A stretch of DNA of 41,912 nucleotides, from sequence record NC_048178.1; one strand, written 5' to 3'. This document shows positions 136 through 41,912 of this stretch, one piece after another (position 1 is the first letter of the stretch; each line of letters begins with the position of its first letter). This DNA is from Escherichia phage Sortsne. Both the position numbers and the translations under genes were made by a program. The notes under the pieces are model-generated. The model worked only from the letters and a program-made list of their open reading frames with translations. It ran no database searches and was not told the origin of the DNA.

Positions 136-1806
136 TTAAAAGTCCTGTAGATCGTCGGTGTGGTCGTCGGTCGGTTGCCAGTCCGTCGGACGCGGATCGT
201 TATCGCGGATTCCGCCCAGTGGTCCCATAGATTCCATCATGGCCGTCAGCGTCTCGTCGCCTGCCATCTTTATCAGGATCTGCTTTTTGGTGGCATGTTC
301 GAACGCGCGATAAAAATCGACCTTGCTCATTGGCGGCTCGGCGGCGTTGCGCATCCATTCAGACAGCGCGCCTTTCGTCAGCTTAGGCCCCCGGTACTTG
401 TTGGCCTTGCGGCGCTCGTTGTACTCGTGGACGTACTGAGCGAGCCTGAGAGCGTTTTCCTGGGTCTTGCTAACCTTCTTCTCCGCCTGCTGCGCTTCGT
501 CCGCGCCTGCGGCCTCCTGTTTGACCATTTCGGGCTTATTGATAACGACCAGCGTCGTGTCGTTGTTGCCGATGTTCCACGCTGCCGGGTCGTCGCTGTT
601 CGTGACCTTGCTCATGCGGGCCATAGCCTCGCGCTTCGCCTGCACGAGCGCCGGAGGGAGTTTTACGGTCTTTGTACGGAACGCGCGACGGTCCAGCATG
701 GCGGAGCCTTTGGCCTTCGTGTGGTCGAAGATGAAAAGCTCCCGGTCCTTGTGCTTGGACAGCGTGATCTCGAATGCGGCGTTTGCCTTGAGCGCCGACG
801 CACCGCGCGCGCCCCTGGCGACGTCCTTCCCGGAGTGGTGGAGGATCACCACGCCACAGTTAAGCGCCTCGGCCAGCTTCTGCGCGTTGACCATCAGGAG
901 CGCGGCCTGGTCGTTGTTGTTCTCGCTGAATGGCTCGCCCCCGGTCCAGCGTCCGGCCTCGTCGCCCGTCGGCTCCCTCCAGACCTCGCCGATCTTCTGG
1001 CCTGCGGAGTTGGCGCTGTAGGTGTCAATTATGACCAGCGCCGGGGGATTGGCTTCGAAGAACGGGGAGGAGTTGATCGCCGCTGCGAACTTCATCAGGT
1101 CGCGCTCGCGGTTGAGTGGGACAGGTCGGCCCATGATAAACAGGTTATCCAGTGGCTTGTCGCCGTTCTGGCTGTAGCGCCAGCCCGCGTATCGCTCTTT
1201 CACGCCGTCGGCGTCCTCTGGTGCGAAGTACAACACGGAGCCTTTACGGACGGGCAAGCCGCCGAAGTGGTGGCCCTTCGCCACGCTGATCGCCATCTGT
1301 AGCGCGCAAAAGGTCTTTTTGGCCCCGGACTCGCCGACGATGAAGCCCACGGACCGCTCCGGGATCAGGTTCTGGATCACGTAGTTAACCACGCGGATCT
1401 CGGACTCCGCTCGCAGACGGTCCACGAGTTCGTCCGGCTGCTTCGCCAGCATTTCGGCGATCTTCGCCTTGTCACGTGCGCGGCGCTCCTCGGTGGTCAG
1501 GCTGCGCGGCATCATGGCGGGCTGGTTGTCCTCGTCCAGTACGACGTCCCACTGGTGATCCTCCTCCACGCTGGCGATCTGCCACAGGCTAAACTCCTCC
1601 ATGCTTACGCCGACCTGTTCGGCCTGTTCTTTGGCGAGCATTTCCTCCCGCTCCAGATCCTCCAGCGTAGGCTCCGGGGCCTGTTCCTGAATTGCTGCCA
1701 GGTCTGGGGGGATCTCGTGGTGCTCGATGGCTTCCGGTTCAAACATGGCGCGGAGTTCTTCTTCGCTCGGCTCCTGCTGCCCTTCGTCTCTGTCGTCTTG
1801 AATCAT
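136..1806 (-). CDS. RecA-fold replicative helicase/ATPase (RepA/DnaB-like, AAA_25-type) with acidic N-terminal extension
   Basis: 556-aa ORF; Walker A GESGAKKT followed by VVILHHSGKD motif typical of RepA/DnaB-like hexameric helicases; about 150-aa acidic N-terminus; GTTACC iterons on both sides. Confidence 0.6.
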   Translation of the reverse strand: MIQDDRDEGQQEPSEEELRAMFEPEAIEHHEIPPDLAAIQEQAPEPTLEDLEREEMLAKEQAEQVGVSMEEFSLWQIASVEEDHQWDVVLDEDNQPAMMPRSLTTEERRARDKAKIAEMLAKQPDELVDRLRAESEIRVVNYVIQNLIPERSVGFIVGESGAKKTFCALQMAISVAKGHHFGGLPVRKGSVLYFAPEDADGVKERYAGWRYSQNGDKPLDNLFIMGRPVPLNRERDLMKFAAAINSSPFFEANPPALVIIDTYSANSAGQKIGEVWREPTGDEAGRWTGGEPFSENNNDQAALLMVNAQKLAEALNCGVVILHHSGKDVARGARGASALKANAAFEITLSKHKDRELFIFDHTKAKGSAMLDRRAFRTKTVKLPPALVQAKREAMARMSKVTNSDDPAAWNIGNNDTTLVVINKPEMVKQEAAGADEAQQAEKKVSKTQENALRLAQYVHEYNERRKANKYRGPKLTKGALSEWMRNAAEPPMSKVDFYRAFEHATKKQILIKMAGDETLTAMMESMGPLGGIRDNDPRPTDWQPTDDHTDDLQDF

Positions 1807-3156: not shown

Positions 3157-3169
3157 ATCACGATAGTAT
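3141..3169 (+). promoter_or_regulatory. sigma70-like promoter TTGTGA-N17-TAGTAT with ATCACGA motif in spacer
   Basis: Read directly from sequence; followed by a 5' hairpin and gene 3217. Confidence 0.4.
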
Positions 3170-3178
3170 TAAGTTGTC

Positions 3179-6625: not shown

Positions 6626-6699
6626 AATTTTGTCCTCATGGTGCGCCGTGTTATAGTTCCCCGGCATTGTAGATCATCTTTGAGCCGTAAACGAAAGGA

Positions 6700-6726
6700 G
6701 CCGCATTTTAAGCGGCCCTTTTTTTT
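6700..6726 (+). terminator. plus-strand-oriented terminator-like hairpin with T8
   Basis: GCCGC-ATTTTAA-GCGGC then CCTTTTTTTT; lies between two minus-strand genes. Confidence 0.35.
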
Positions 6727-6827: not shown

Positions 6828-7216
6828 CAGAATTTCCCCTCTTTCTTGAATTTTGCGATCCGCCCACGGAGAGCGGCGACGGTTTTCCCCAGCCAGTTAG
6901 CGACGTGCTTATGGGTCAGCCCGTCCGGCACTATGACGCCATGAGGTACGACGGCCACCAGTTCGTCCTCGTCCTGCTCCGTCAGTAACCCCTCATACCA
7001 GCGGGCCAGCTTGCGGTCCTCCTCCGTGGTCCACAGGGTGTACGTTTTACTATACGCCAGCGAGACGCCCAGGTGGTGGGCGCGGACCTGCATCTGGCGG
7101 AAGTTGCGCCCGATCTTTTTGGCGAGGTCCTTCGGCGGCATGGTCCCGGCGAGGCGCTCCAGTTCGGCGTCCTGCTCGTCTGTCCATCCGATAATCTTTG
7201 CGGTGACTTGGCTCAT
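6827..7216 (-). CDS. putative DNA-binding protein with two W-T-x-E-E-D repeats (GcrA/SANT-like)
   Basis: 129 aa; IGWTDEQDAELERL and LWTTEEDRKLARW repeats; assignment from motif recollection only. Confidence 0.4.
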   Translation of the reverse strand: MSQVTAKIIGWTDEQDAELERLAGTMPPKDLAKKIGRNFRQMQVRAHHLGVSLAYSKTYTLWTTEEDRKLARWYEGLLTEQDEDELVAVVPHGVIVPDGLTHKHVANWLGKTVAALRGRIAKFKKEGKF

Positions 7217-7756: not shown

Positions 7757-7789
7757 CTTTCTGTCTCCTCGTGTTGGTGTGATAAAGAA

Positions 7790-7818
7790 TATAACAAAGG
7801 ATAAGTTTACCCGCAAGA
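7790..7818 (-). promoter_or_regulatory. sigma70-like promoter TTGCGG-N17-TATATT, flanked by ATCACGAAA and TTATCACA motifs
   Basis: Minus-strand reading; immediately downstream of an intrinsic terminator. Confidence 0.45.
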
Positions 7819-7837
7819 GGTTTTTTAATTATTTCGT

Positions 7838-7864
7838 GATAAAAGAGAAAAGGCCCCGGAGGGC
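7838..7864 (-). terminator. intrinsic terminator within early minus operon
   Basis: GGCCCTCCGGGGCC hairpin followed by TTTTCTCTTTT on minus strand; promoter 7790-7818 follows. Confidence 0.5.
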
Positions 7865-7869
7865 CTCGA

Positions 7870-8610
7870 TCAGAATGGGACGTTTGCCTGGTACACGGCG
7901 AGGGCGAAGCCTTCGGGGGTGGCGCTGCGGATGTTCTTCGTGCGGGTTGATGATCCTCCCAGCTTGGCCCATCCCGGATTGTTGGCGACTGCCGGGACTG
8001 GCTTATGGTCGGGCATGTTGAAAGCGCCGCCGCACCAGATCCCCGTCTGCTTCGGGTAGCTGTCCCGCGCCGGGTAGATCTCCGGGTAGAGGCTATGCTG
8101 GTGATCCTCCGGCAAGTAGCCGCCGAAGTGGTACGGGTGGAACCAATGATCGCAAGGTCGCCACATCGTGGAGAGCCGGGAGATCTTCGGGTTCTCCAGC
8201 ATCCAGGGGATAGCCTCCTTGTCGTCATATCCGCCGCTCTCATACGCGGCAAAGATCGCCACCTGCTCGACCATCTTCGCCAGCGCCACAGCCTTCTCCT
8301 GGAAGCGCGGATCTTTCTTCCGCTTCGCTTCCCACCAGCGCGCCCCGGTACAGGTAAGATCGGTACACTCGGCGAACGACGCCACGAACATAACGCCGGG
8401 GCCGACCTCCTCCGCAATGCGGAGCGCTTCGGCTTCGGTGTTGTCGGCGTCGAACATGCGGCCCACGCGGACCAGGTTCGGCTCCTCCGGGTCGCGGTGG
8501 ATGCCGTCCGGGTGCTGGCCGTCATACATCCAGCATTCATAGCCGCCCTTAAGCCACGGATCAACCATGATCCGGGTAAGGTTGAATAAGAAAATCGCCT
8601 TACCCGCCAT
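7870..8610 (-). CDS. hypothetical protein (replication-module associated)
   Basis: Start refined to ATG at 8610 (MAGKAIF...) adjacent to upstream stop; no confident motif. Confidence 0.45.
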   Translation of the reverse strand: MAGKAIFLFNLTRIMVDPWLKGGYECWMYDGQHPDGIHRDPEEPNLVRVGRMFDADNTEAEALRIAEEVGPGVMFVASFAECTDLTCTGARWWEAKRKKDPRFQEKAVALAKMVEQVAIFAAYESGGYDDKEAIPWMLENPKISRLSTMWRPCDHWFHPYHFGGYLPEDHQHSLYPEIYPARDSYPKQTGIWCGGAFNMPDHKPVPAVANNPGWAKLGGSSTRTKNIRSATPEGFALAVYQANVPF

Positions 8611-8611
8611 A

Positions 8612-9211
8612 TTAACCTCTCGCTGGCATGATGATAAACGTAGCCGGACCGCAAGGCGTTTCGAACTCCACGCGGAGCGGCTGATCCTTCGCGGCGAAGT
8701 GGAGAGAAGCAAACGGCATCTTAGCGCCGAACTTTTTCCCCAGCTTCTCAATCAGGCCCAGATACTCGGAGGCCACCTTGATCTCCGTGATAGCCTTCGC
8801 GCCTGCCTTCTGCCCGGAGATCAGGCGATCCACGTCAGGATAGCGAGCGTCCACGACGTCCACCGTCCCGACCGCGCCGCGCATCTTGCGGAAGTCATAC
8901 TCCGCGAGGTCCTTCGGCTTATCGGCGATCGCGCTGGTCCAGTAGACGATCCCGGCTTCCGTATCAATGACCGCCGTCGAAAAGGCCCGGCCACTGGGGG
9001 GAGTCGAGATCTTGAGGATAACGCCCTCCTCCGGGGCGTTTACCAGGCCGTGGGCGCTGGAGAGCGCCACGTGACCGTTAGAGGACTGGATCGTGTTGCC
9101 TTTCAGGTGGACGGCGTTCAGATAATAGCGGACGTCGTTCTTTGCCTGGGTCAGCGCGTGGGCGCGTAATGCTTCTACGGGTGCATAAATAATCATCTTT
9201 GAGCCTTCCAT
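8612..9211 (-). CDS. truncated DnaN-like sliding-clamp protein
   Basis: DVRYYLNAVHL resembles the DVRYYLNG motif of DNA polymerase III beta clamp, and C-terminal FIIMPARG resembles the clamp C-terminus; about half the length of DnaN. Confidence 0.45.
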   Translation of the reverse strand: MEGSKMIIYAPVEALRAHALTQAKNDVRYYLNAVHLKGNTIQSSNGHVALSSAHGLVNAPEEGVILKISTPPSGRAFSTAVIDTEAGIVYWTSAIADKPKDLAEYDFRKMRGAVGTVDVVDARYPDVDRLISGQKAGAKAITEIKVASEYLGLIEKLGKKFGAKMPFASLHFAAKDQPLRVEFETPCGPATFIIMPARG

Positions 9212-9861
9212 TAAATCAGCGTCTTGCCATCAAAAATCATTTCCGCCTGCGTGACGTACTCCGTCTTGATCTCGCCACGTTTGCGCGGCTTGATAACGAA
9301 GATCACGGACGGCTTGCTGTTCTTCTTCCCGGCGATCTTCGTGTCGGCGCGCACAAAGGCCACACGGCCCGACGTCTCGCCGTCGCTGGTGATGTGAACG
9401 ACCAGACTCCCGGCGTCCAGCGCCTTCTTAAACCACGCCGTGGAGGCGTCGGAGTTCAGGAGGAGGACGGTCGTCACGCCGCGCGCCTTCGCCTGCTGGA
9501 CGGCCTTCTCCACCCAGGGAAGCGGGTCGGCGTATGGCGGGTTACACCATGCCAGCCCGTTCTCGGCTCCCCACTCCACGCCGTCGGCCAGCGCGTCCGT
9601 TGCTTCGTCCAGGTAGACGTCGCAAAGGGCGTTTTCCTTCTCCGCTGCCACGTCGATCCCGAACGCGCCGAAGCGCTTCACGCACCAGGCGAACAGCCAC
9701 GGCGGGGTCTGCCACTTCTGGCGGATGTTATCCGGCGTAACGCTGCCTTTGAAGCGACGCCCGGAAACCTTCACGGCGTCCTCCACCTGCGCCACCACTG
9801 CCGCCTCGCCGCCGATGGCTTCCACCGCGTCGATCGTTACTTTGTCGTTTTCGTCTTTCAT
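9211..9861 (-). CDS. dam: phage Dam-type DNA N6-adenine methyltransferase
   Basis: WQTPPWLF and NPPY (WCNPPYADP) motifs characteristic of phage N6A methyltransferases. Confidence 0.85.
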   Translation of the reverse strand: MKDENDKVTIDAVEAIGGEAAVVAQVEDAVKVSGRRFKGSVTPDNIRQKWQTPPWLFAWCVKRFGAFGIDVAAEKENALCDVYLDEATDALADGVEWGAENGLAWCNPPYADPLPWVEKAVQQAKARGVTTVLLLNSDASTAWFKKALDAGSLVVHITSDGETSGRVAFVRADTKIAGKKNSKPSVIFVIKPRKRGEIKTEYVTQAEMIFDGKTLI

Positions 9862-9869
9862 GTTGCGCC

Positions 9870-10307
9870 TTATTGTCCAGTTGATCCGAAGCCGCCGGAG
9901 CGGGTGCTGGTTGCTTCCGGGAGGGTGGTCACTTCGTCGAGTTCGACCTGTTCGATCGGGACGAGCATAAACTGGGCCACGCGGTCGCCCTTCTTGACCT
10001 GCGGCAAGCGGCCAGGGATATCACAATGTAACTTCACCATTACCTCGTCGCGGTAGTCGCTATCGATCACGCCGACGCAATTAGACAGGCGGGTGTTCTG
10101 GTTGAAACCCATCCCGGATCGGGAGTAGATCAGCATGGCCCAGCCTTCGGGGATAGCTACGGCCCAGCCAGTCCGGCACAGGATCGAGCCGTCGCCCTGC
10201 GCTTCTGCGGTCAGCGCGTAAACGTCCATACACGCGGAGCCGTCGGTGGCATAGGTGGGTAACTTAAAGTTTTCATCAGTGGTTAAGCGTTTGATCTTGA
10301 GTTCCAT
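9870..10307 (-). CDS. dut: dUTP diphosphatase
   Basis: Conserved dUTPase motifs (YSRSG, GVIDSDYRDEV, C-terminal RSGGFGSTG); GGAG RBS. Confidence 0.85.
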   Translation of the reverse strand: MELKIKRLTTDENFKLPTYATDGSACMDVYALTAEAQGDGSILCRTGWAVAIPEGWAMLIYSRSGMGFNQNTRLSNCVGVIDSDYRDEVMVKLHCDIPGRLPQVKKGDRVAQFMLVPIEQVELDEVTTLPEATSTRSGGFGSTGQ

Positions 10308-10456
10308 TTTGTACTCCAGTTGTTGTCTACGTGGTAAAGTTAACGGATTCGTGATTTTATTTCAAGTCAATTTGATGATAAATTATTAAATGTCTCTTTC
10401 GTCTGGTTCCCAGGCGTTACAAATTTAGCGCCGCTGGTATCTCGTGCGCTCCCATC

Positions 10457-10482
10457 GGCCCCACGTGCGGGGCCTTTTTTTT
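10457..10482 (+). terminator. plus-strand-oriented intrinsic terminator in primase-dUTPase intergenic region
   Basis: GGCCCCACGTGCGGGGCC hairpin followed by T8 on the plus strand; U-tract faces opposite to the flanking genes. Confidence 0.5.
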
Positions 10483-11293
10483 ACCCGAACGCCCCGCAAT
10501 AGTCCCCGCCCCATCTGGCGCGCCCGGTCTTGTCATAGGCATACATCCAGGCCTCGTCCGGGTCGGTGCATACCATGCGAAGCTCCCGATCGCCGTCGTA
10601 TTCGAGGGCCACCTGTACCGCGTTACGTGGCGTAAAGGTTAGCCATACCTCGGCCCCGGTGCGAGCGGCCACATTCACGGCATGGCCTGGATCGGCCACA
10701 AGATACGCCGTCTTGCCGTCGGGTACTGGGTGGATCAGGCCATAGGCTCCCCACGTCCGGCCACCAGCGGCGAACGCCACCGAACGGTCCGGCGCGATCT
10801 TCGCCACGTTGCAGGGCATCCCCCCAGACGCGCGGACGCATGGAACATACAGGAAGCCGTCGCGCATCGTGCCTTTAGCCATGACCTTCTCCACGTCCTC
10901 CGGCGTCAGGCTGTAGTCCTCGCCCGGCCTGTCCTGCATCCTGGCTAACTTCTTCGCCTCGCGGACGATCGTCTCCCGCTTCTCCGGGGTGAGTCCGCCT
11001 ATCCAGTCGCCCAGGTCGTTGATCGCCTCGTTGAATGGCTGGTTACGCGAGGCCATAAACCAAAACATGCCATCACGAGCGCCACCGCACGAGCCGGAGC
11101 AATAGGCGAAGCCCTCGCCCCGCTTATTGGCCTGCTTATGGCCCCATCGGAAACGGTCGGAGCCGCCACAGATCGGGCAAGCCTGGTGCTTCCCGTTGAA
11201 CGCCTTCCGGTCCCATCCGCACAGATCGAGGAGCGCCTGTTCCCACTTGCCGGGCATAGCGCCTAACACGTCCTCTTTTTTGTAAATTGCCAT
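10481..11293 (-). CDS. DNA primase (zinc-ribbon plus TOPRIM)
   Basis: N-terminal CPICGGSDRFRW...YCSGSCG primase-type zinc ribbon; C-terminal TOPRIM-like acidic motifs (YLVADPG...CTDPDEA). Confidence 0.7.
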   Translation of the reverse strand: MAIYKKEDVLGAMPGKWEQALLDLCGWDRKAFNGKHQACPICGGSDRFRWGHKQANKRGEGFAYCSGSCGGARDGMFWFMASRNQPFNEAINDLGDWIGGLTPEKRETIVREAKKLARMQDRPGEDYSLTPEDVEKVMAKGTMRDGFLYVPCVRASGGMPCNVAKIAPDRSVAFAAGGRTWGAYGLIHPVPDGKTAYLVADPGHAVNVAARTGAEVWLTFTPRNAVQVALEYDGDRELRMVCTDPDEAWMYAYDKTGRARWGGDYCGAFG

Positions 11294-11294
11294 C

Positions 11295-11323
11295 TTGCCC
11301 TCCGATAACTTCCCGTATACTAT
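11295..11323 (+). promoter_or_regulatory. sigma70-like promoter TTGCCC-N17-TACTAT for the plus-strand recombination operon
   Basis: In divergent primase/helicase intergenic region; TATCACGAAAGCG motif at start site. Confidence 0.45.
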
Positions 11324-11346
11324 ATCACGAAAGCGTTAAGAAACAA
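11319..11346 (-). promoter_or_regulatory. candidate divergent promoter TTGTTT-N16-TATAGT for primase operon
   Basis: Minus-strand reading; -10 overlaps the plus-strand -10 (TACTATA palindrome). Confidence 0.3.
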
Positions 11347-11360
11347 GAAAGGATAAAAGA

Positions 11361-13399: not shown

Positions 13400-13846
13400 A
13401 TGGGAACGATTAACAAAAAAGTGGAGTTCTGGCGCGAGTTTTACCCGGAGCATAAGGCGACCTACAGCCCGAAAGAGGAGGTAGAACAGAAGATCACGGC
13501 GTCCCACATCCAGTACAATTACCCGGACCTTCTGGCCTTCCATCCGGTCAATGAGTCCGGCGGGTCCGGTGATGCCGCCTACGGGGCGAAGTTAAAGGCG
13601 CTGGGCCGACTGGCCGGGATCTCTGACTGGGTGATCCTGGAGCCGCGCGGCGGGTATGGCTTCGCGCTGATCGAGTTGAAACGGAACGACCGGAGCAAAT
13701 CGCGCCTTAACCCGGAGCAAAAGGAGATCCTGGAGAAAGCGCGGGCGCGTGGTGGCTGGACGGCGGTCGCATGGGGTGCGGACGCCTTCGAGGTCGCGCT
13801 GGATTATTATCTCTCTCTACCGCTTGCAAATATCACGAAAGCGTGA
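13400..13846 (+). CDS. VRR-NUC domain nuclease
   Basis: ISDWVILEPRGGYGFALIELKRND matches the PD-(D/E)XK core of VRR-NUC proteins. Confidence 0.7.
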   Translation: MGTINKKVEFWREFYPEHKATYSPKEEVEQKITASHIQYNYPDLLAFHPVNESGGSGDAAYGAKLKALGRLAGISDWVILEPRGGYGFALIELKRNDRSKSRLNPEQKEILEKARARGGWTAVAWGADAFEVALDYYLSLPLANITKA

Positions 13847-13852
13847 TTTAAT
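13824..13852 (+). promoter_or_regulatory. promoter TTGCAA-N17-TTTAAT with perfect 16-bp palindrome ATCACGAAAGCGTGAT in the spacer
   Basis: Palindrome at 13832-13847 overlaps the VRR-NUC stop codon; precedes exonuclease gene. Confidence 0.45.
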
Positions 13853-13887
13853 TACTCTCACGTTATCCACACGAGAGAGACAAAATT

Positions 13888-34247: not shown

Positions 34248-35870
34248 TTAGCGGTTGCTCGGCACATTATAGCCGTTGTAATCGTCATTTTTCACGCGCT
34301 CCGGCGGCTGCATCAACATGCAAAGCACGTCGGCCATGCCAGGCGATTTCATTTTTAACTTGGTGCGCATCTGCGGCTTAGGCATACGCTGGAATTTCCC
34401 CTCCGTGTTGTAAACGCGGGGAATACGGCATACCTCGGCGCGTAGCTTCTGCATATGCTCCCCGATCCCCTCGCTGGAGAGGCTGATCAGCTCGTCCGGG
34501 TTCACGTACTCGCCGTGGACCACGGCCCGGTAAGTCTTTTCAAAGCGGCGGCGTAACAGGTAGATATCCTGGGAGCCTCGGTTCTTAAAAGCGTTCTGAT
34601 TTTTCAGAAGGTTGTCGCCTTCGGTCTTGTTATTTAGCCACGTATCAAGCTCCACCAGCCCGTCCGGCTGGTTCACGCCATCCCCGGCGTTATACCCCGA
34701 CACGAGGGTGTTAGTCGAGGCGTAAGCGTCGGTGATCTGGCGGCGGAGGCCAGCGCCCAGCCCTGCCCGGTCCCAGATAAACGCCTCCACGCCGTGATCC
34801 TTCGCCGTGTTCACGGCCTTGTCCGCTGCGTCGTTGGCGTCGCCTTCGAACCACTCCTCCATCCACGTGACCACGGAGCCGTAACGCTCGCCGTATGCCT
34901 TGTTATCCGCCCCGACGTCCGCCGGGTCGAGTGCGCCGATCCTCATGCCGGACGGCTTAAAGCCTAATTTCACATGAGCGTCGATCGCCGCGTCGAACCA
35001 CTCCGCCGGGATAATGGCATCCGGTACGCTGTCGTTAAAATGCCCTTCCCACACGTGATCGAACAGCGCGCGGGAGAGGGTTTTCCGGTCGAACTCCATT
35101 TCCGCCCGGAGTTCTGGGGGAAACCACGGATTATCCGACCAGTTAACGCGGATCACGAGGTGGAGATCGTCCTCGTAGATGCCGTCACGAAGGAGATCCT
35201 CCCAGAATGGATTGATAAATCGCTTCGAAAACGCATCCTCTGAGGAGCCGGGGTTCGCGGTGAATAGCATCATGCCGCCGGATTCGCGCATGGTCGGCGT
35301 TAGCTGGCGGATCGACTCCTCGGAAAAGGTCTGCGCCTCCTCACCCCAGAATCGACGATAACCGAACGCGGATTTAACCCCGGCGGGGTCGCGGGCCATC
35401 CCTTTAAAGCGGATGATCGCGCCGTTCTCGTGTCGGATCTCCTTCTCCAGTACCTCGAAGCCGTCCAGGTTCGACGCCTCGATCCGGTTGACGAGTAGCG
35501 GGTGTACGGAGTCCTTGATCGATGCCTGGTACTCACGAAGGCACAGGGCGCTCGTCGCCTCGTCGTGGGCGTCCGCGTCGATGATTGCGCCGACGGTGAG
35601 CGACTTCCCGGAGCCTCGGCCACCGACCAGGATCACAAAGCGCTTAGGCCGTAACAGGATCGGGGTCAGGACCTCCGCGATCGTCAGGTCGTGCGGGTCG
35701 CTGGTGTATACCCACTCGCCGTTAACCTTCTTCATGTTGTAGCAGTGGGCCGCACTGGTCCCATCCGGGCGGTAGACGCCGTAAACCAGCCCGCCCTCCT
35801 TCGCCTTATAGCGGAGTTGCGCCTCCAGTCGTGCGAGGCGCTCCAGCGCCTCCTTACGATTTCTTGCCAT
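34248..35870 (-). CDS. terminase large subunit
   Basis: Walker A VGGRGSGKS near N-terminus; C-terminal acidic RNase H-like nuclease region; upstream of portal. Confidence 0.85.
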   Translation of the reverse strand: MARNRKEALERLARLEAQLRYKAKEGGLVYGVYRPDGTSAAHCYNMKKVNGEWVYTSDPHDLTIAEVLTPILLRPKRFVILVGGRGSGKSLTVGAIIDADAHDEATSALCLREYQASIKDSVHPLLVNRIEASNLDGFEVLEKEIRHENGAIIRFKGMARDPAGVKSAFGYRRFWGEEAQTFSEESIRQLTPTMRESGGMMLFTANPGSSEDAFSKRFINPFWEDLLRDGIYEDDLHLVIRVNWSDNPWFPPELRAEMEFDRKTLSRALFDHVWEGHFNDSVPDAIIPAEWFDAAIDAHVKLGFKPSGMRIGALDPADVGADNKAYGERYGSVVTWMEEWFEGDANDAADKAVNTAKDHGVEAFIWDRAGLGAGLRRQITDAYASTNTLVSGYNAGDGVNQPDGLVELDTWLNNKTEGDNLLKNQNAFKNRGSQDIYLLRRRFEKTYRAVVHGEYVNPDELISLSSEGIGEHMQKLRAEVCRIPRVYNTEGKFQRMPKPQMRTKLKMKSPGMADVLCMLMQPPERVKNDDYNGYNVPSNR

Positions 35871-39303: not shown

Positions 39304-39332
39304 AATATAACGCTATCGTGATAATCATGCAA
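39304..39332 (-). promoter_or_regulatory. promoter TTGCAT-N17-TATATT with ATCACGATAGCG in spacer
   Basis: Minus-strand reading; followed by 5' hairpin with AAUGG loop. Confidence 0.45.
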
Positions 39333-41024: not shown

Positions 41025-41136
41025 GGCTTCGTCTCTCTCGCTGGTGGGCTGCACCGTTGCCGCCCTTGATGTGATAAAGAATATCTCAGAGGCGGCAAGG
41101 TGTCCAGCAAAATATCACGAAAAGATTAAATTATTT

Positions 41137-41605: not shown

Positions 41606-41806
41606 TTACAGTCCCAGAATGTTAAACACGATCGCCGCTAACAGTACGATGCCAGCGCCGTAAACCGTGAAGCACATCAGCAATAAATTCCACTGGCCGA
41701 CCTCCTTCCGGTACTCGCTGATCGTCTCCGGTTCGGTCCGTCCCCTTGCCTTCCGGTCGGGGAATTTAATCACGTTAATATTAACCTCTCTTTCATCACG
41801 AATCAA
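41606..41806 (-). CDS. questionable small membrane-protein ORF
   Basis: Track ORF begins with TTG and has no RBS; region is dense in operator-like motifs; an AAGGAGG RBS sits further in, in another frame. Confidence 0.2.
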   Translation of the reverse strand: MIRDEREVNINVIKFPDRKARGRTEPETISEYRKEVGQWNLLLMCFTVYGAGIVLLAAIVFNILGL

Positions 41807-41912
41807 TGATAATTATGTGTGGTATTTGTCGGGGGTTTACCCGGCCCATTTCCTCAATGTTTGCCCCTTCGGGCTACCCGTTACCGAAAGTAATGTAAGT
41901 TATTGATTACTG

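What the first reader, a model, noticed from the sequence alone, without database searches (positions are those of the whole stretch)
10308..10482. Long AT-rich intergenic region between primase and dUTPase with a plus-oriented terminator
A 173-nt gap in an otherwise compact operon is AT-rich (10320-10400), contains TTGACT and AAAATCACGAA motifs, and ends in a strong hairpin plus T8 oriented for the strand opposite to the flanking genes. This could encode a small antisense or regulatory RNA of about 80-120 nt, or be an origin.
Basis: seen in the sequence. Interest (0 to 1): 0.5.

Follow-up and report, generated by a model that had tools for sequence, protein, structure and literature searches.

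The report
Backward-facing terminator after phage primase gene
The gap after the primase gene of this E. coli podophage holds an ordinary promoter for the next genes and a conserved 57-base module whose transcription terminator faces against its neighbours, so a short antisense RNA probably ends there, though this is untested and not very surprising.

Summary
A 173-nt gap (10308-10480) lies between primase and dUTPase, both on the - strand. It includes the most AT-rich stretch of the genome. It ends in a perfect 6-bp G+C hairpin (10457-10474) followed by T8 (10475-10482), oriented for the + strand.

The gap is conserved in all 11 known relatives (Sortsnevirus/Murrayvirus) and has two parts.

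1. The AT-rich half diverges fast (54-64% identity). It carries a - strand sigma-70 promoter, TTGAAA-17-TAACTT. The promoter belongs to a repeated phage motif, ATCACGA-N6-TAnnnT, with 6 copies against 0.12 expected.

2. A 57-nt module abuts the primase stop codon and is 74-88% identical to the window's copy, about the same as the primase gene (78-82%). It comprises a stem-loop with an invariant CUGGUAU loop and the hairpin+T8. The hairpin shows compensatory changes and the T-run never varies.

More distant phages with the same primase have a terminator in the sense orientation, or no gap at all.

My best reading is that a 90-135 nt + strand RNA, geometrically like lambda oop, starts in the promoter region and ends at T8. 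No + strand promoter is conserved, so a dedicated sRNA gene is unproven. I found no iterons or DnaA boxes, so an origin is unlikely. Interest is modest.

The parts
10308..10480 (.). Intergenic region between primase (10481..11293, -) and dUTPase (9870..10307, -)
   Evidence: ORF list and Pfam. A gap of the same size, 152-166 nt by the annotated gene coordinates, follows the primase gene in all nine GenBank relatives and is also present in the two IMG/VR relatives.
10457..10474 (+). Terminator hairpin GGCCCC-ACGUGC-GGGGCC (6 G-C pairs, 6-nt loop)
   Evidence: -14.1 kcal/mol. Kept in 12/12 genomes with compensatory G-C<->A-U changes at the stem base and variable loops.
10475..10482 (+). T8 tract immediately 3' of the hairpin on the + strand. 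10481-10483 is the complement of the primase TAA stop.
   Evidence: Invariant T8-T9 in all 12 genomes. On the - strand it reads A8 upstream of the hairpin, and no U-tract follows the hairpin there.
10427..10450 (.). Second stem-loop: outer stem AGCGC/GCGCU, inner CG/CG, apical loop containing CUGGUAU (+ strand) or AUACCAG (- strand)
   Evidence: Folds on either strand in every genome. Strand preference is inconsistent: a U.G pair favours the - strand in the IME_EC2 lineage, and a G.U pair favours the + strand in ST231.
10428..10440 (.). Invariant block GCGCC(G)CTGGTAT, the most conserved non-coding sequence of the gap
   Evidence: Invariant columns in the 12-sequence alignment. It is a single copy in the IME279 genome. 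A second 10-mer copy in the window at 6995 is not conserved.
10337..10365 (-). Sigma-70-type promoter for dUTPase-Dam-RusA: -35 TTGAAA (10365->10360), 17-nt spacer holding ATCACGA (10355->10349), -10 TAACTT (10342->10337). Predicted start near 10330.
   Evidence: PWM scan. The -10 keeps the form TAnnnT in all lineages (TAACTT / TATGTT / TATCGT). It is a member of the repeated ATCACGA-N6-(T/G)AnnnT motif, 6 copies against 0.12 expected and 5 against 0.04 in IME279.
10354..10381 (-). Overlapping alternative - strand promoter TTATCA-16-TAAAAT
   Evidence: The TAAAAT is conserved in the window and the IME279 group only.
10356..10384 (+). Candidate + strand promoter TTTATT-17-TGaTAAATT (extended -10). 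Start near 10390 would give a 93-nt RNA.
   Evidence: PWM score 10.6. Not conserved: the IME279 group has TTTACT/TTTAAT without the key A at position 2, and Murrayvirus has TATTTG/A.
10332..10340 (+). Second candidate + strand extended -10, TGgTAAAGT, back to back with the - strand -10. Start near 10347 would give a 136-nt RNA.
   Evidence: Read from the sequence. The equivalents are TAACAT/CATAAT in IME279 and GATAAT in Murrayvirus, in different registers.
10400..10416 (+). Window-specific hairpin CGUCUGG-UUC-CCAGGCG with a U.G pair that becomes C.A on the - strand
   Evidence: It is not present in relatives.
10347..10482 (+). Maximal extent of the inferred + strand RNA (the shorter version is 10390-10482)
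   Evidence: Inferred from the candidate promoters and the terminator. No transcript data exist.

Best explanation
The gap is a conserved two-part control region.

Part 1, the AT-rich half. It is a host sigma-70 promoter on the - strand that restarts transcription into dUTPase, Dam and RusA. It is one copy of a promoter type used throughout this phage, with an ATCACGA box in the spacer.

Part 2, the 57 nt that abut the primase stop codon. This is a stem-loop with an invariant CUGGUAU loop followed by a canonical intrinsic terminator that works only for the + strand.

Proposed mechanism. RNA polymerase starts on the + strand inside the AT-rich promoter region, from an extended -10 or from the back-to-back -10 of the - strand promoter. 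It makes a 90-135 nt RNA and stops at T8, exactly at the primase gene boundary.

That RNA is perfectly complementary to the 3' untranslated end of primase transcripts that read into the gap. It therefore has the geometry of a cis-antisense RNA such as lambda oop. The two complementary heptaloops offer a kissing contact, the + strand loop starting with a YUNR motif (CUGG). The terminator would also keep antisense transcription out of the primase gene.

What is shown: the sequence elements, their conservation, the strand specificity of the terminator, and the - strand promoter family.

What is inferred: that the + strand is transcribed, where it starts, and any regulatory effect.
For: - The hairpin+T8 is a textbook intrinsic terminator on the + strand only.
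- All four long T-runs on the + strand of the genome are terminators of this type.
- No such site arises in 100 shuffles.
- The hairpin and T8 are kept in 12/12 genomes, with paired G-C<->A-U changes and variable loops. The adjacent AT-rich DNA has drifted to 54-64% identity.
- The 57-nt module is 74-88% identical to the window's copy, against 78-82% for the primase coding sequence.
- Distant primase homologues carry a sense-oriented terminator (T1-like tonijn, ADB-2, pSf-1, Sushi, Bas78, KFS-SE2) or no gap (Sabo). The inverted orientation is therefore a specific, retained feature of this clade.
- The window has two + strand extended -10 candidates at the right distance (sequence).
- A window-specific hairpin contains a U.G pair that works only on the + strand.
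- In the IME279 group the second stem-loop is followed on the - strand by UAAUUUUUU. The two hairpins there look like face-to-face terminators of convergent transcripts.
- Promoters with overlapping -10 elements often fire in both directions in E. coli (bioRxiv 10.1101/2020.01.31.928960).
- For oop: it is transcribed opposite to cII and ends at a hairpin terminator overlapping the cII 3' end (PMC5869508).
Against: - No + strand promoter is conserved in position and quality across the three lineages. AT-rich DNA gives promoter-like hits easily.
- The 5' two-thirds of the putative RNA is poorly conserved.
- There is no Rfam match.
- No trans-target complementarity exceeds chance: three 11-mers found, against roughly 2.6 by my own rough estimate.
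- The stem-loop folds equally well or better on the - strand in several genomes.
- Only about 3 nt of the primase ORF would be overlapped, unlike the 52 nt of cII that oop overlaps.
- The other - strand promoter gap (7757-7870) has no reverse terminator, so insulation is not a general need in this genome.
- No transcript data exist.
Confidence: 0.45

Rival explanations
1. Insulator only. The reverse terminator merely stops incidental + strand transcription, either divergent firing of the - strand promoter or read-through antisense RNA, before it enters the primase gene and the primase/helicase promoter region. The resulting RNA has no function of its own.
For: The T8 ends exactly at the primase stop codon. 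No + strand promoter is conserved, and the 5' part of the RNA is not conserved. Bidirectional firing of -10 elements is common. IME279 has an exact TAnnnTA symmetric -10, TATGTTA.
Against: This does not explain the invariant GCGCC(G)CTGGTAT stem-loop next to the terminator. The other - strand promoter gap has no such insulator.
Confidence: 0.25
2. The module is a - strand RNA element. The two hairpins act in the 3' untranslated region of primase mRNA as a weak terminator or attenuator, a 3'-exonuclease barrier, or a protein-binding or processing site. The T8, read as A8 in the mRNA, would be incidental.
For: The second stem-loop is more stable on the - strand in the IME_EC2 lineage through a U.G pair (-22 against -15.7 kcal/mol for the module). 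It is followed by U5-U6 in the IME279 group. It lies directly after the primase stop codon.
Against: There is no U-tract after either hairpin on the - strand in Lumpael, and only weak ones in the window and the EC2 lineage. An A8 tract before a hairpin has no known role, yet it is invariant. The six non-coding T (10475-10480) never vary while flanking bases do. ST231 favours the + strand.
Confidence: 0.15
3. The region is a replication origin or primosome-loading site: an AT-rich unwinding region plus hairpins recognised by the adjacent primase or helicase, possibly activated by a short transcript.
For: It is the most AT-rich spot in the genome, it lies next to the primase and near the helicase gene, and it has a conserved hairpin with an invariant loop.
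Against: There are no direct repeats or iterons and no DnaA boxes in the gap. The AT-rich part is the least conserved part, and its conserved blocks are explained by the - strand promoter family. The invariant motif occurs only once per genome. The RepA-like ATPase gene (136..1806) and its AT-rich upstream region are at least as good a candidate site.
Confidence: 0.07
4. The terminator is an evolutionary relic, left over from a lost + strand gene or a small inversion, with no present function.
For: Related T1-like phages have a terminator at the same place in the opposite orientation.
Against: It is conserved perfectly across two genera whose neutral intergenic DNA has fallen to about 55% identity, and it shows compensatory stem changes.
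Confidence: 0.05

Closest known systems
Bacteriophage lambda oop RNA with its tO terminator
   Same: It would be a short RNA made from the strand opposite to the flanking replication-region genes. It would start in an intergenic promoter region and end at a hairpin plus U-run terminator at the 3' end of the upstream gene. It would be complementary to that gene's transcript (PMC5869508).
   Different: oop overlaps 52 nt of the cII coding sequence, whereas here only the stop codon and 3' untranslated region are overlapped. oop has a defined promoter (pO) and a demonstrated RNase III-dependent effect, whereas here neither promoter nor transcript is shown. There is no sequence similarity, and the host phage here appears to be lytic rather than temperate.
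Phage P22 sar antisense RNA (immI region); comparison from memory, not checked here
   Same: It is a small antisense RNA initiated inside an intercistronic region of a podophage operon and read against the operon. These phages also have P22-like structural genes.
   Different: sar covers the ribosome-binding site of the downstream gene (ant). The RNA inferred here runs away from the downstream gene's start and cannot cover it.
Bidirectional sigma-70 promoters giving divergent non-coding transcripts (Warman et al., bioRxiv 10.1101/2020.01.31.928960)
   Same: The -10 hexamers overlap on opposite strands. This is exact in the IME279 group (TATGTTA). In the window TAACTT and TAAAGT overlap by 4 bp.
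   Different: The predicted start sites in the window are about 17 bp apart, which is not one of the enriched spacings (18, 23, 29, 12, 10, 7). A dedicated downstream terminator for the divergent RNA is not part of that description.
Sense-oriented intrinsic terminator after the primase gene of T1-like phages (Drexlerviridae)
   Same: The primase gene is homologous (28-35% amino-acid identity). A G+C hairpin plus a T5-T9 run lies directly after the stop codon and is followed by an AT-rich promoter region. Murrayvirus and tonijn even share the same TAGCA-N5-TGCTA palindrome.
   Different: The orientation is opposite in the Sortsne/Murrayvirus clade, and an extra conserved stem-loop is present.

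Membership tests
Intrinsic (Rho-independent) terminator, + strand | G+C-rich stem-loop immediately followed by a run of U | tested here: met
   6 G-C pairs, 6-nt loop, -14.1 kcal/mol, then U8 with no gap. The same build is seen in the three other + strand terminators in the genome.
Intrinsic (Rho-independent) terminator, + strand | Structure maintained by selection (compensatory changes, conserved U-run) | tested here: met
   12/12 genomes keep it. There is a G-C<->A-U exchange at the stem base, the loops vary, and the T8-T9 run is invariant.
Intrinsic (Rho-independent) terminator, + strand | RNA 3' ends map to the U-run | not testable with these tools
   No transcript data for this phage group were found in the literature library.
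Intrinsic terminator acting on the - strand (bidirectional terminator) | U-run 3' of the hairpin on the - strand as well | tested here: not met
   On the - strand hairpin 1 is followed by GAUGGGAGC. The bidirectional site at 6698-6726 does have T-rich sequence on both sides.
cis-antisense small RNA of the lambda oop type | Own promoter on the strand opposite to the flanking genes | tested here: inconclusive
   The window has TTTATT-17-TGaTAAATT and TGgTAAAGT (sequence). Neither is conserved in register or quality in the other lineages.
cis-antisense small RNA of the lambda oop type | Terminator at or overlapping the 3' end of the convergent target gene | tested here: met
   The T8 overlaps the primase stop codon. 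The overlap with the ORF is only about 3 nt, against 52 nt for oop/cII.
cis-antisense small RNA of the lambda oop type | Detectable transcript and an effect on the target mRNA (RNase III dependent) | not testable with these tools
   This needs a Northern blot, RNA-seq and genetics.
Hfq-binding sRNA 3' module (from memory: Otaka, Ishikawa, Morita and Aiba) | Terminator with at least 7 U, preceded by an internal hairpin and a U-rich linker | tested here: inconclusive
   U8 and an upstream hairpin are present. The linker is C-rich (CCCAUC), not U-rich. The mRNA terminators of this phage also have T7-T8, so the long U-run is not discriminating.
Sigma-70 promoter, - strand | -35 and -10 hexamers at 16-18 bp spacing, upstream of and oriented toward a gene | tested here: met
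   TTGAAA-17-TAACTT lies 30 nt upstream of the dUTPase ATG. The -10 is TAnnnT in all lineages. It belongs to the repeated ATCACGA-N6-TAnnnT family, which is oriented with the downstream gene in three of the six copies; the 41114 and 41795 copies point against the - strand annotation of IME279 and 35152 is intragenic.
Replication origin | Iterons or initiator-binding repeats, or DnaA boxes, next to an AT-rich unwinding element | tested here: not met
   The AT-rich element is present. There are no direct repeats, no DnaA box with up to 1 mismatch in 10308-10480, and the invariant motif is single-copy.
Any Rfam family | Score at or above the family gathering threshold | tested here: not met
   The best hits are 15-17 bits against thresholds of 38-81, with E-values above 1.

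The most novel reading that the evidence does not exclude
The conserved 57-nt module is the functional 3' domain of a previously unknown small antisense RNA in a group of apparently lytic podophages. Its invariant YUNR-type heptaloop (CUGGUAU) would kiss the complementary loop in primase transcripts that read into the gap. This would trigger duplex formation and cleavage, coupling primase mRNA fate and read-through into dUTPase-Dam-RusA to the activity of the adjacent promoter. That would be a lytic-phage counterpart of lambda oop. A further possibility, as was once proposed for oop, is that the transcript also takes part in replication initiation next to the primase gene.
Probability: 0.2. 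Interest if true: 0.5.

Novelty: new member of a known kind. Interest (0 to 1): 0.3.

Why it matters
If the + strand RNA exists and acts on primase transcripts, it would be an early example of a conserved cis-antisense regulator in the replication module of an apparently lytic enterobacterial podophage group (Sortsnevirus/Murrayvirus), for which the literature library held no transcription studies. It would also give a clean natural case of a terminator retained in reverse orientation.

In practice the analysis supplies an annotation for these genomes: a promoter family (ATCACGA-N6-TAnnnT), the internal promoter for the dUTPase/Dam operon, and a strand-specific terminator.

If the RNA is only a by-product, the finding is ordinary operon punctuation.

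Tried and rejected
- Rfam scan of 9800-11000 at permissive E-values: only sub-threshold noise. No tRNA or tmRNA in the window.
- Motif scans for more homologues: IMG/VR, metagenome contigs, GTDB genomes and E. coli genomes. Only the known phage clade carries the element, so the comparative depth stays at 12 genomes in about 5 lineages.
- A protein-anchored search of IMG/VR returned only the same clade.
- Small ORFs. A 12-codon + strand ORF (10390-10428) has no ribosome-binding site and is not conserved. The 41-aa - strand ORF (10417..10542), annotated in ST231 as a hypothetical protein, spans a region with non-triplet indels among relatives. Both were rejected as genes.
- Frameshifting or slippage on the A8 after the primase stop. 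There is no slippery heptamer before the stop, and the run starts after the U of UAA. Rejected by inspection.
- Trans targets of the putative RNA. The longest complementarities elsewhere in the genome are three 11-mers, against about 2.6 by my rough estimate. The complement of the invariant loop is not at any ribosome-binding site.
- A second genomic copy of CCGCTGGTAT at 6995 is absent from IME279, so it is chance.
- An alternative hairpin pairing the 3' arm of the terminator with primase codons (I3) is broken by a synonymous change in IME279, so it is chance.
- TGTTCACC, the P4 ori iteron sequence as I recall it, occurs in the Lumpael gap but is not conserved in the other genomes. Rejected.
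- CCGCTAGTAT upstream of the tonijn primase terminator resembles the invariant motif but is absent from other T1-like phages. I kept it as a lead only.
- Strand assignment of the second stem-loop from wobble pairs gave contradictory answers between lineages.
- I did not build a covariance model. MAFFT misaligns the 3' arm of that stem, and five lineages give too little power.

Full report
**What the window is.** The 41,912-bp, 60% GC window is a podophage. Its primase region is about 80% identical to Sortsnevirus (IME279, sortkaff, Kc237) and Murrayvirus (IME_EC2, sortsyn, Lumpael, sortregn, ST231, KMB41). Its length and GC content equal those tabulated for Escherichia phage Sortsne (PMC7552041). 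That record is not in the searchable phage collection, so the identification is an inference. IME279's annotation shows no phage RNA polymerase, P22-like structural genes and a T1-like replication/recombination module. Host sigma-70 promoters and intrinsic terminators are therefore expected.

**Checking the observation.**
- The primase (10481..11293, -, Zn_Ribbon_Prim) and the dUTPase (9870..10307, -, PF00692) flank a 173-nt gap.
- The gap contains the lowest-GC 80-nt windows of the genome, 27.5% against 60%.
- TTGACT and AAAATCACGAA are present on the - strand.
- The gap ends with GGCCCC-ACGTGC-GGGGCC (10457-10474, -14.1 kcal/mol) followed directly by T8 (10475-10482). The T8 overlaps the complement of the primase TAA.
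- Perfect stems of at least 6 bp followed by at least 7 T occur three times in the window and never in 100 dinucleotide shuffles.
- All four + strand T-runs of 7 or more follow a G+C hairpin.
- On the - strand the hairpin is preceded by A8 and followed by GAUGGGAGC, so it is a terminator for the + strand only.

**Conservation.**
- All nine GenBank relatives and two IMG/VR contigs have the same 152-166 nt gap after the primase gene.
- In the relatives the next gene is Dam. In the window a dUTPase gene sits between the gap and Dam (9211..9861).
- Alignment splits the gap in two. The AT-rich 5' part, in + strand terms, is only 54-64% identical between the window and its relatives.
- The 3' 57 nt are 74-88% identical, about the same as the primase coding sequence (78-82%).
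- Within these 57 nt the T-run is invariant (T8-T9). The hairpin is kept with a paired G-C<->A-U exchange at its base and with variable loops.
- A block GCGCC(G)CTGGTAT (10428-10440) is invariant. It forms the 5' arm and apical loop of a second stem-loop with outer stem GCGC/GCGC, inner stem CG/CG and loop CUGGUAU.
- Scans of IMG/VR, metagenomes, GTDB genomes and E. coli genomes found no further copies. Rfam has nothing.

**Orientation compared with distant relatives.** The same primase family (28-37% identity) occurs in T1-like phages and in Pectobacterium phage Sabo. In tonijn, ADB-2, pSf-1, Sushi, Bas78 and KFS-SE2 the primase stop is followed by a terminator in the sense orientation. In Sabo there is no gap. 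The antisense orientation is thus a derived feature of the Sortsne/Murrayvirus clade. It has been kept through divergence that has scrambled the neighbouring non-coding DNA.

**The AT-rich half is mainly a - strand promoter.**
- A PWM scan finds TTGAAA-17-TAACTT in the window and TTGAAA-17-TATGTT in the IME279 group at the same alignment columns.
- The Murrayvirus equivalent of the -10 is TATCGT, so TAnnnT is kept in every lineage.
- The core TTCGTGAT occurs 8 times in the window against 1.26 expected.
- The composite ATCACGA-N6-(T/G)AnnnT occurs 6 times against 0.12 expected in the window, and 5 times against 0.04 in IME279.
- Three of the six copies (3157+, 10355-, 39322-) lie in AT-rich intergenic DNA and point toward the next gene. 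The copies at 41114+ and 41795+ point in the + direction in a block whose genes IME279 annotates on the - strand. The copy at 35152 is intragenic and probably chance.
- The copy at 39322(-) is a very good promoter, TTGCAT-17-TATATT, in the same register as the one in the gap.
- The gap therefore holds an internal promoter for dUTPase-Dam-RusA.
- The other AT-rich gap of the same gene block (7757-7870) has the conventional arrangement: a - strand terminator and then a - strand promoter, TTGCGG-17-TATATT.

**Is there a + strand promoter?**
- The window has two candidates. TTTATT-17-TGaTAAATT (10356-10384) would start near 10390 and give a 93-nt RNA. An extended -10, TGgTAAAGT (10332-10340), lies back to back with the - strand -10. 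It would start near 10347 and give a 136-nt RNA (sequence).
- In the IME279 group the first candidate becomes TTTACT/TTTAAT, which lacks the critical A. There the - strand -10 TATGTTA is exactly symmetric, with TAACAT on the + strand.
- In Murrayvirus a GATAAT lies on the + strand in another register.
- Each lineage thus has some + strand -10, but none is conserved as such. Overlapping -10 elements commonly fire both ways in E. coli (bioRxiv 10.1101/2020.01.31.928960), so divergent initiation is plausible without a dedicated promoter.

**Which strand uses the second stem-loop?** It folds on both strands. In the IME_EC2 lineage a U.G pair makes it much better on the - strand. In ST231 a G.U pair favours the + strand. 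On the - strand it is followed by UAAUUUUUU in the IME279 group, UAAAUUUGU in the window and nothing U-rich in Lumpael. At most it is a weak, lineage-dependent terminator for primase transcripts. Where it is, the two hairpins form face-to-face terminators of convergent transcripts, which again implies a + strand transcript. The + strand loop begins with CUGG, a YUNR motif of the kind described for antisense RNA recognition loops; I cite this from memory and did not check it here. The - strand loop lacks one.

**Alternatives examined.**
- Origin. There are no direct repeats. No DnaA box lies within the gap. The invariant motif is single-copy. The AT-rich part is the least conserved, and its conserved blocks are promoter elements.
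- Coding. The small ORFs are not conserved, and non-triplet indels occur.
- Frameshift or slippage on A8. This is excluded by the position of the run relative to the stop codon.
- Trans targets. Nothing exceeds chance.
- Relic. This is unlikely given the conservation.

**Conclusion.**
- The most economical account is a conserved control region made of an internal - strand promoter and a reverse-oriented terminator module.
- I put about 0.7 on + strand transcription really ending at T8. That splits between an oop-like cis-antisense RNA with a function of its own (0.45, which includes the insulating effect) and a mere insulator (0.25).
- A - strand 3'-UTR element (0.15), an origin (0.07) and a relic (0.05) are the remaining rivals.
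- The feature is a new member of a known kind. It is worth one Northern blot but is not surprising to a specialist.

Noticed in passing
window 3157-3175(+), 10337-10355(-), 39304-39322(-), 41114-41132(+), 41795-41813(+); core also at 7833-7840, 11324-11331, 13832-13839: A repeated promoter-type motif, ATCACGA-N6-(T/G)AnnnT, occurs 6 times against 0.12 expected in the window and 5 times against 0.04 in IME279. The ATCACGA box sits in the promoter spacer, and sometimes forms a palindrome (ATCACGAAAGCGTGAT at 13832-13847). That suggests an operator for a phage regulator inside early/middle promoters.
   Followed up: partly
window 41114-41132 and 41795-41813 (+ strand): Two copies of the promoter motif point in the + direction inside a block whose genes are annotated on the - strand in IME279. 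The same motif lies at IME279 41888-41906, between gp56 and gp57. These may be unannotated + strand transcripts or divergent promoters.
   Followed up: no
L008 615-635 and 2925-2945; L009 620-640 and 2927-2947; L101 3481-3497; L112 (ADB-2) about 1585-1605: Murrayvirus genomes carry the palindrome TAGCA-N5-TGCTA centred about 41-42 bp upstream of the -10 in both - strand intergenic promoter regions. An 18-nt identical copy lies upstream of the tail-fibre gene in T1-like phage tonijn, and a variant lies in ADB-2. It is probably a shared regulator-binding site at the position of a class II activator.
   Followed up: partly
window 9870-10307: The dUTPase gene is an insertion relative to all 11 relatives, in which Dam follows the gap directly. 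It sits immediately downstream of the internal promoter, like a moron or cassette.
   Followed up: partly
window 6698-6726: A second + oriented T8 terminator lies between two - strand genes. Unlike the one studied, it is bidirectional: the hairpin is flanked by AAACGAAAGG upstream and T8 downstream. It marks the boundary between the early/middle block and the tail-protein gene.
   Followed up: no
window 13863-13871: A perfect DnaA box, TTATCCACA, lies in the leader of the exonuclease VIII gene, 16 nt after the perfect ATCACG-N4-CGTGAT palindrome. Genome-wide, DnaA boxes with up to 1 mismatch number 12 against 4.2 expected (0 of 100 shuffles reach 12).
   Followed up: no
window 11294-11360: The primase and helicase genes are driven by back-to-back promoters whose -10 hexamers overlap by 3 bp (- strand TTGTTT-16-TATAGT; + strand TATACT). 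An ATCACGAAAGCGTTAA box overlaps both.
   Followed up: no
whole window: Length (41,912 bp), GC content (60%) and relatedness match Escherichia phage Sortsne (MK651787 / NC_048178) as tabulated in PMC7552041. That record is absent from the searchable phage collection.
   Followed up: partly
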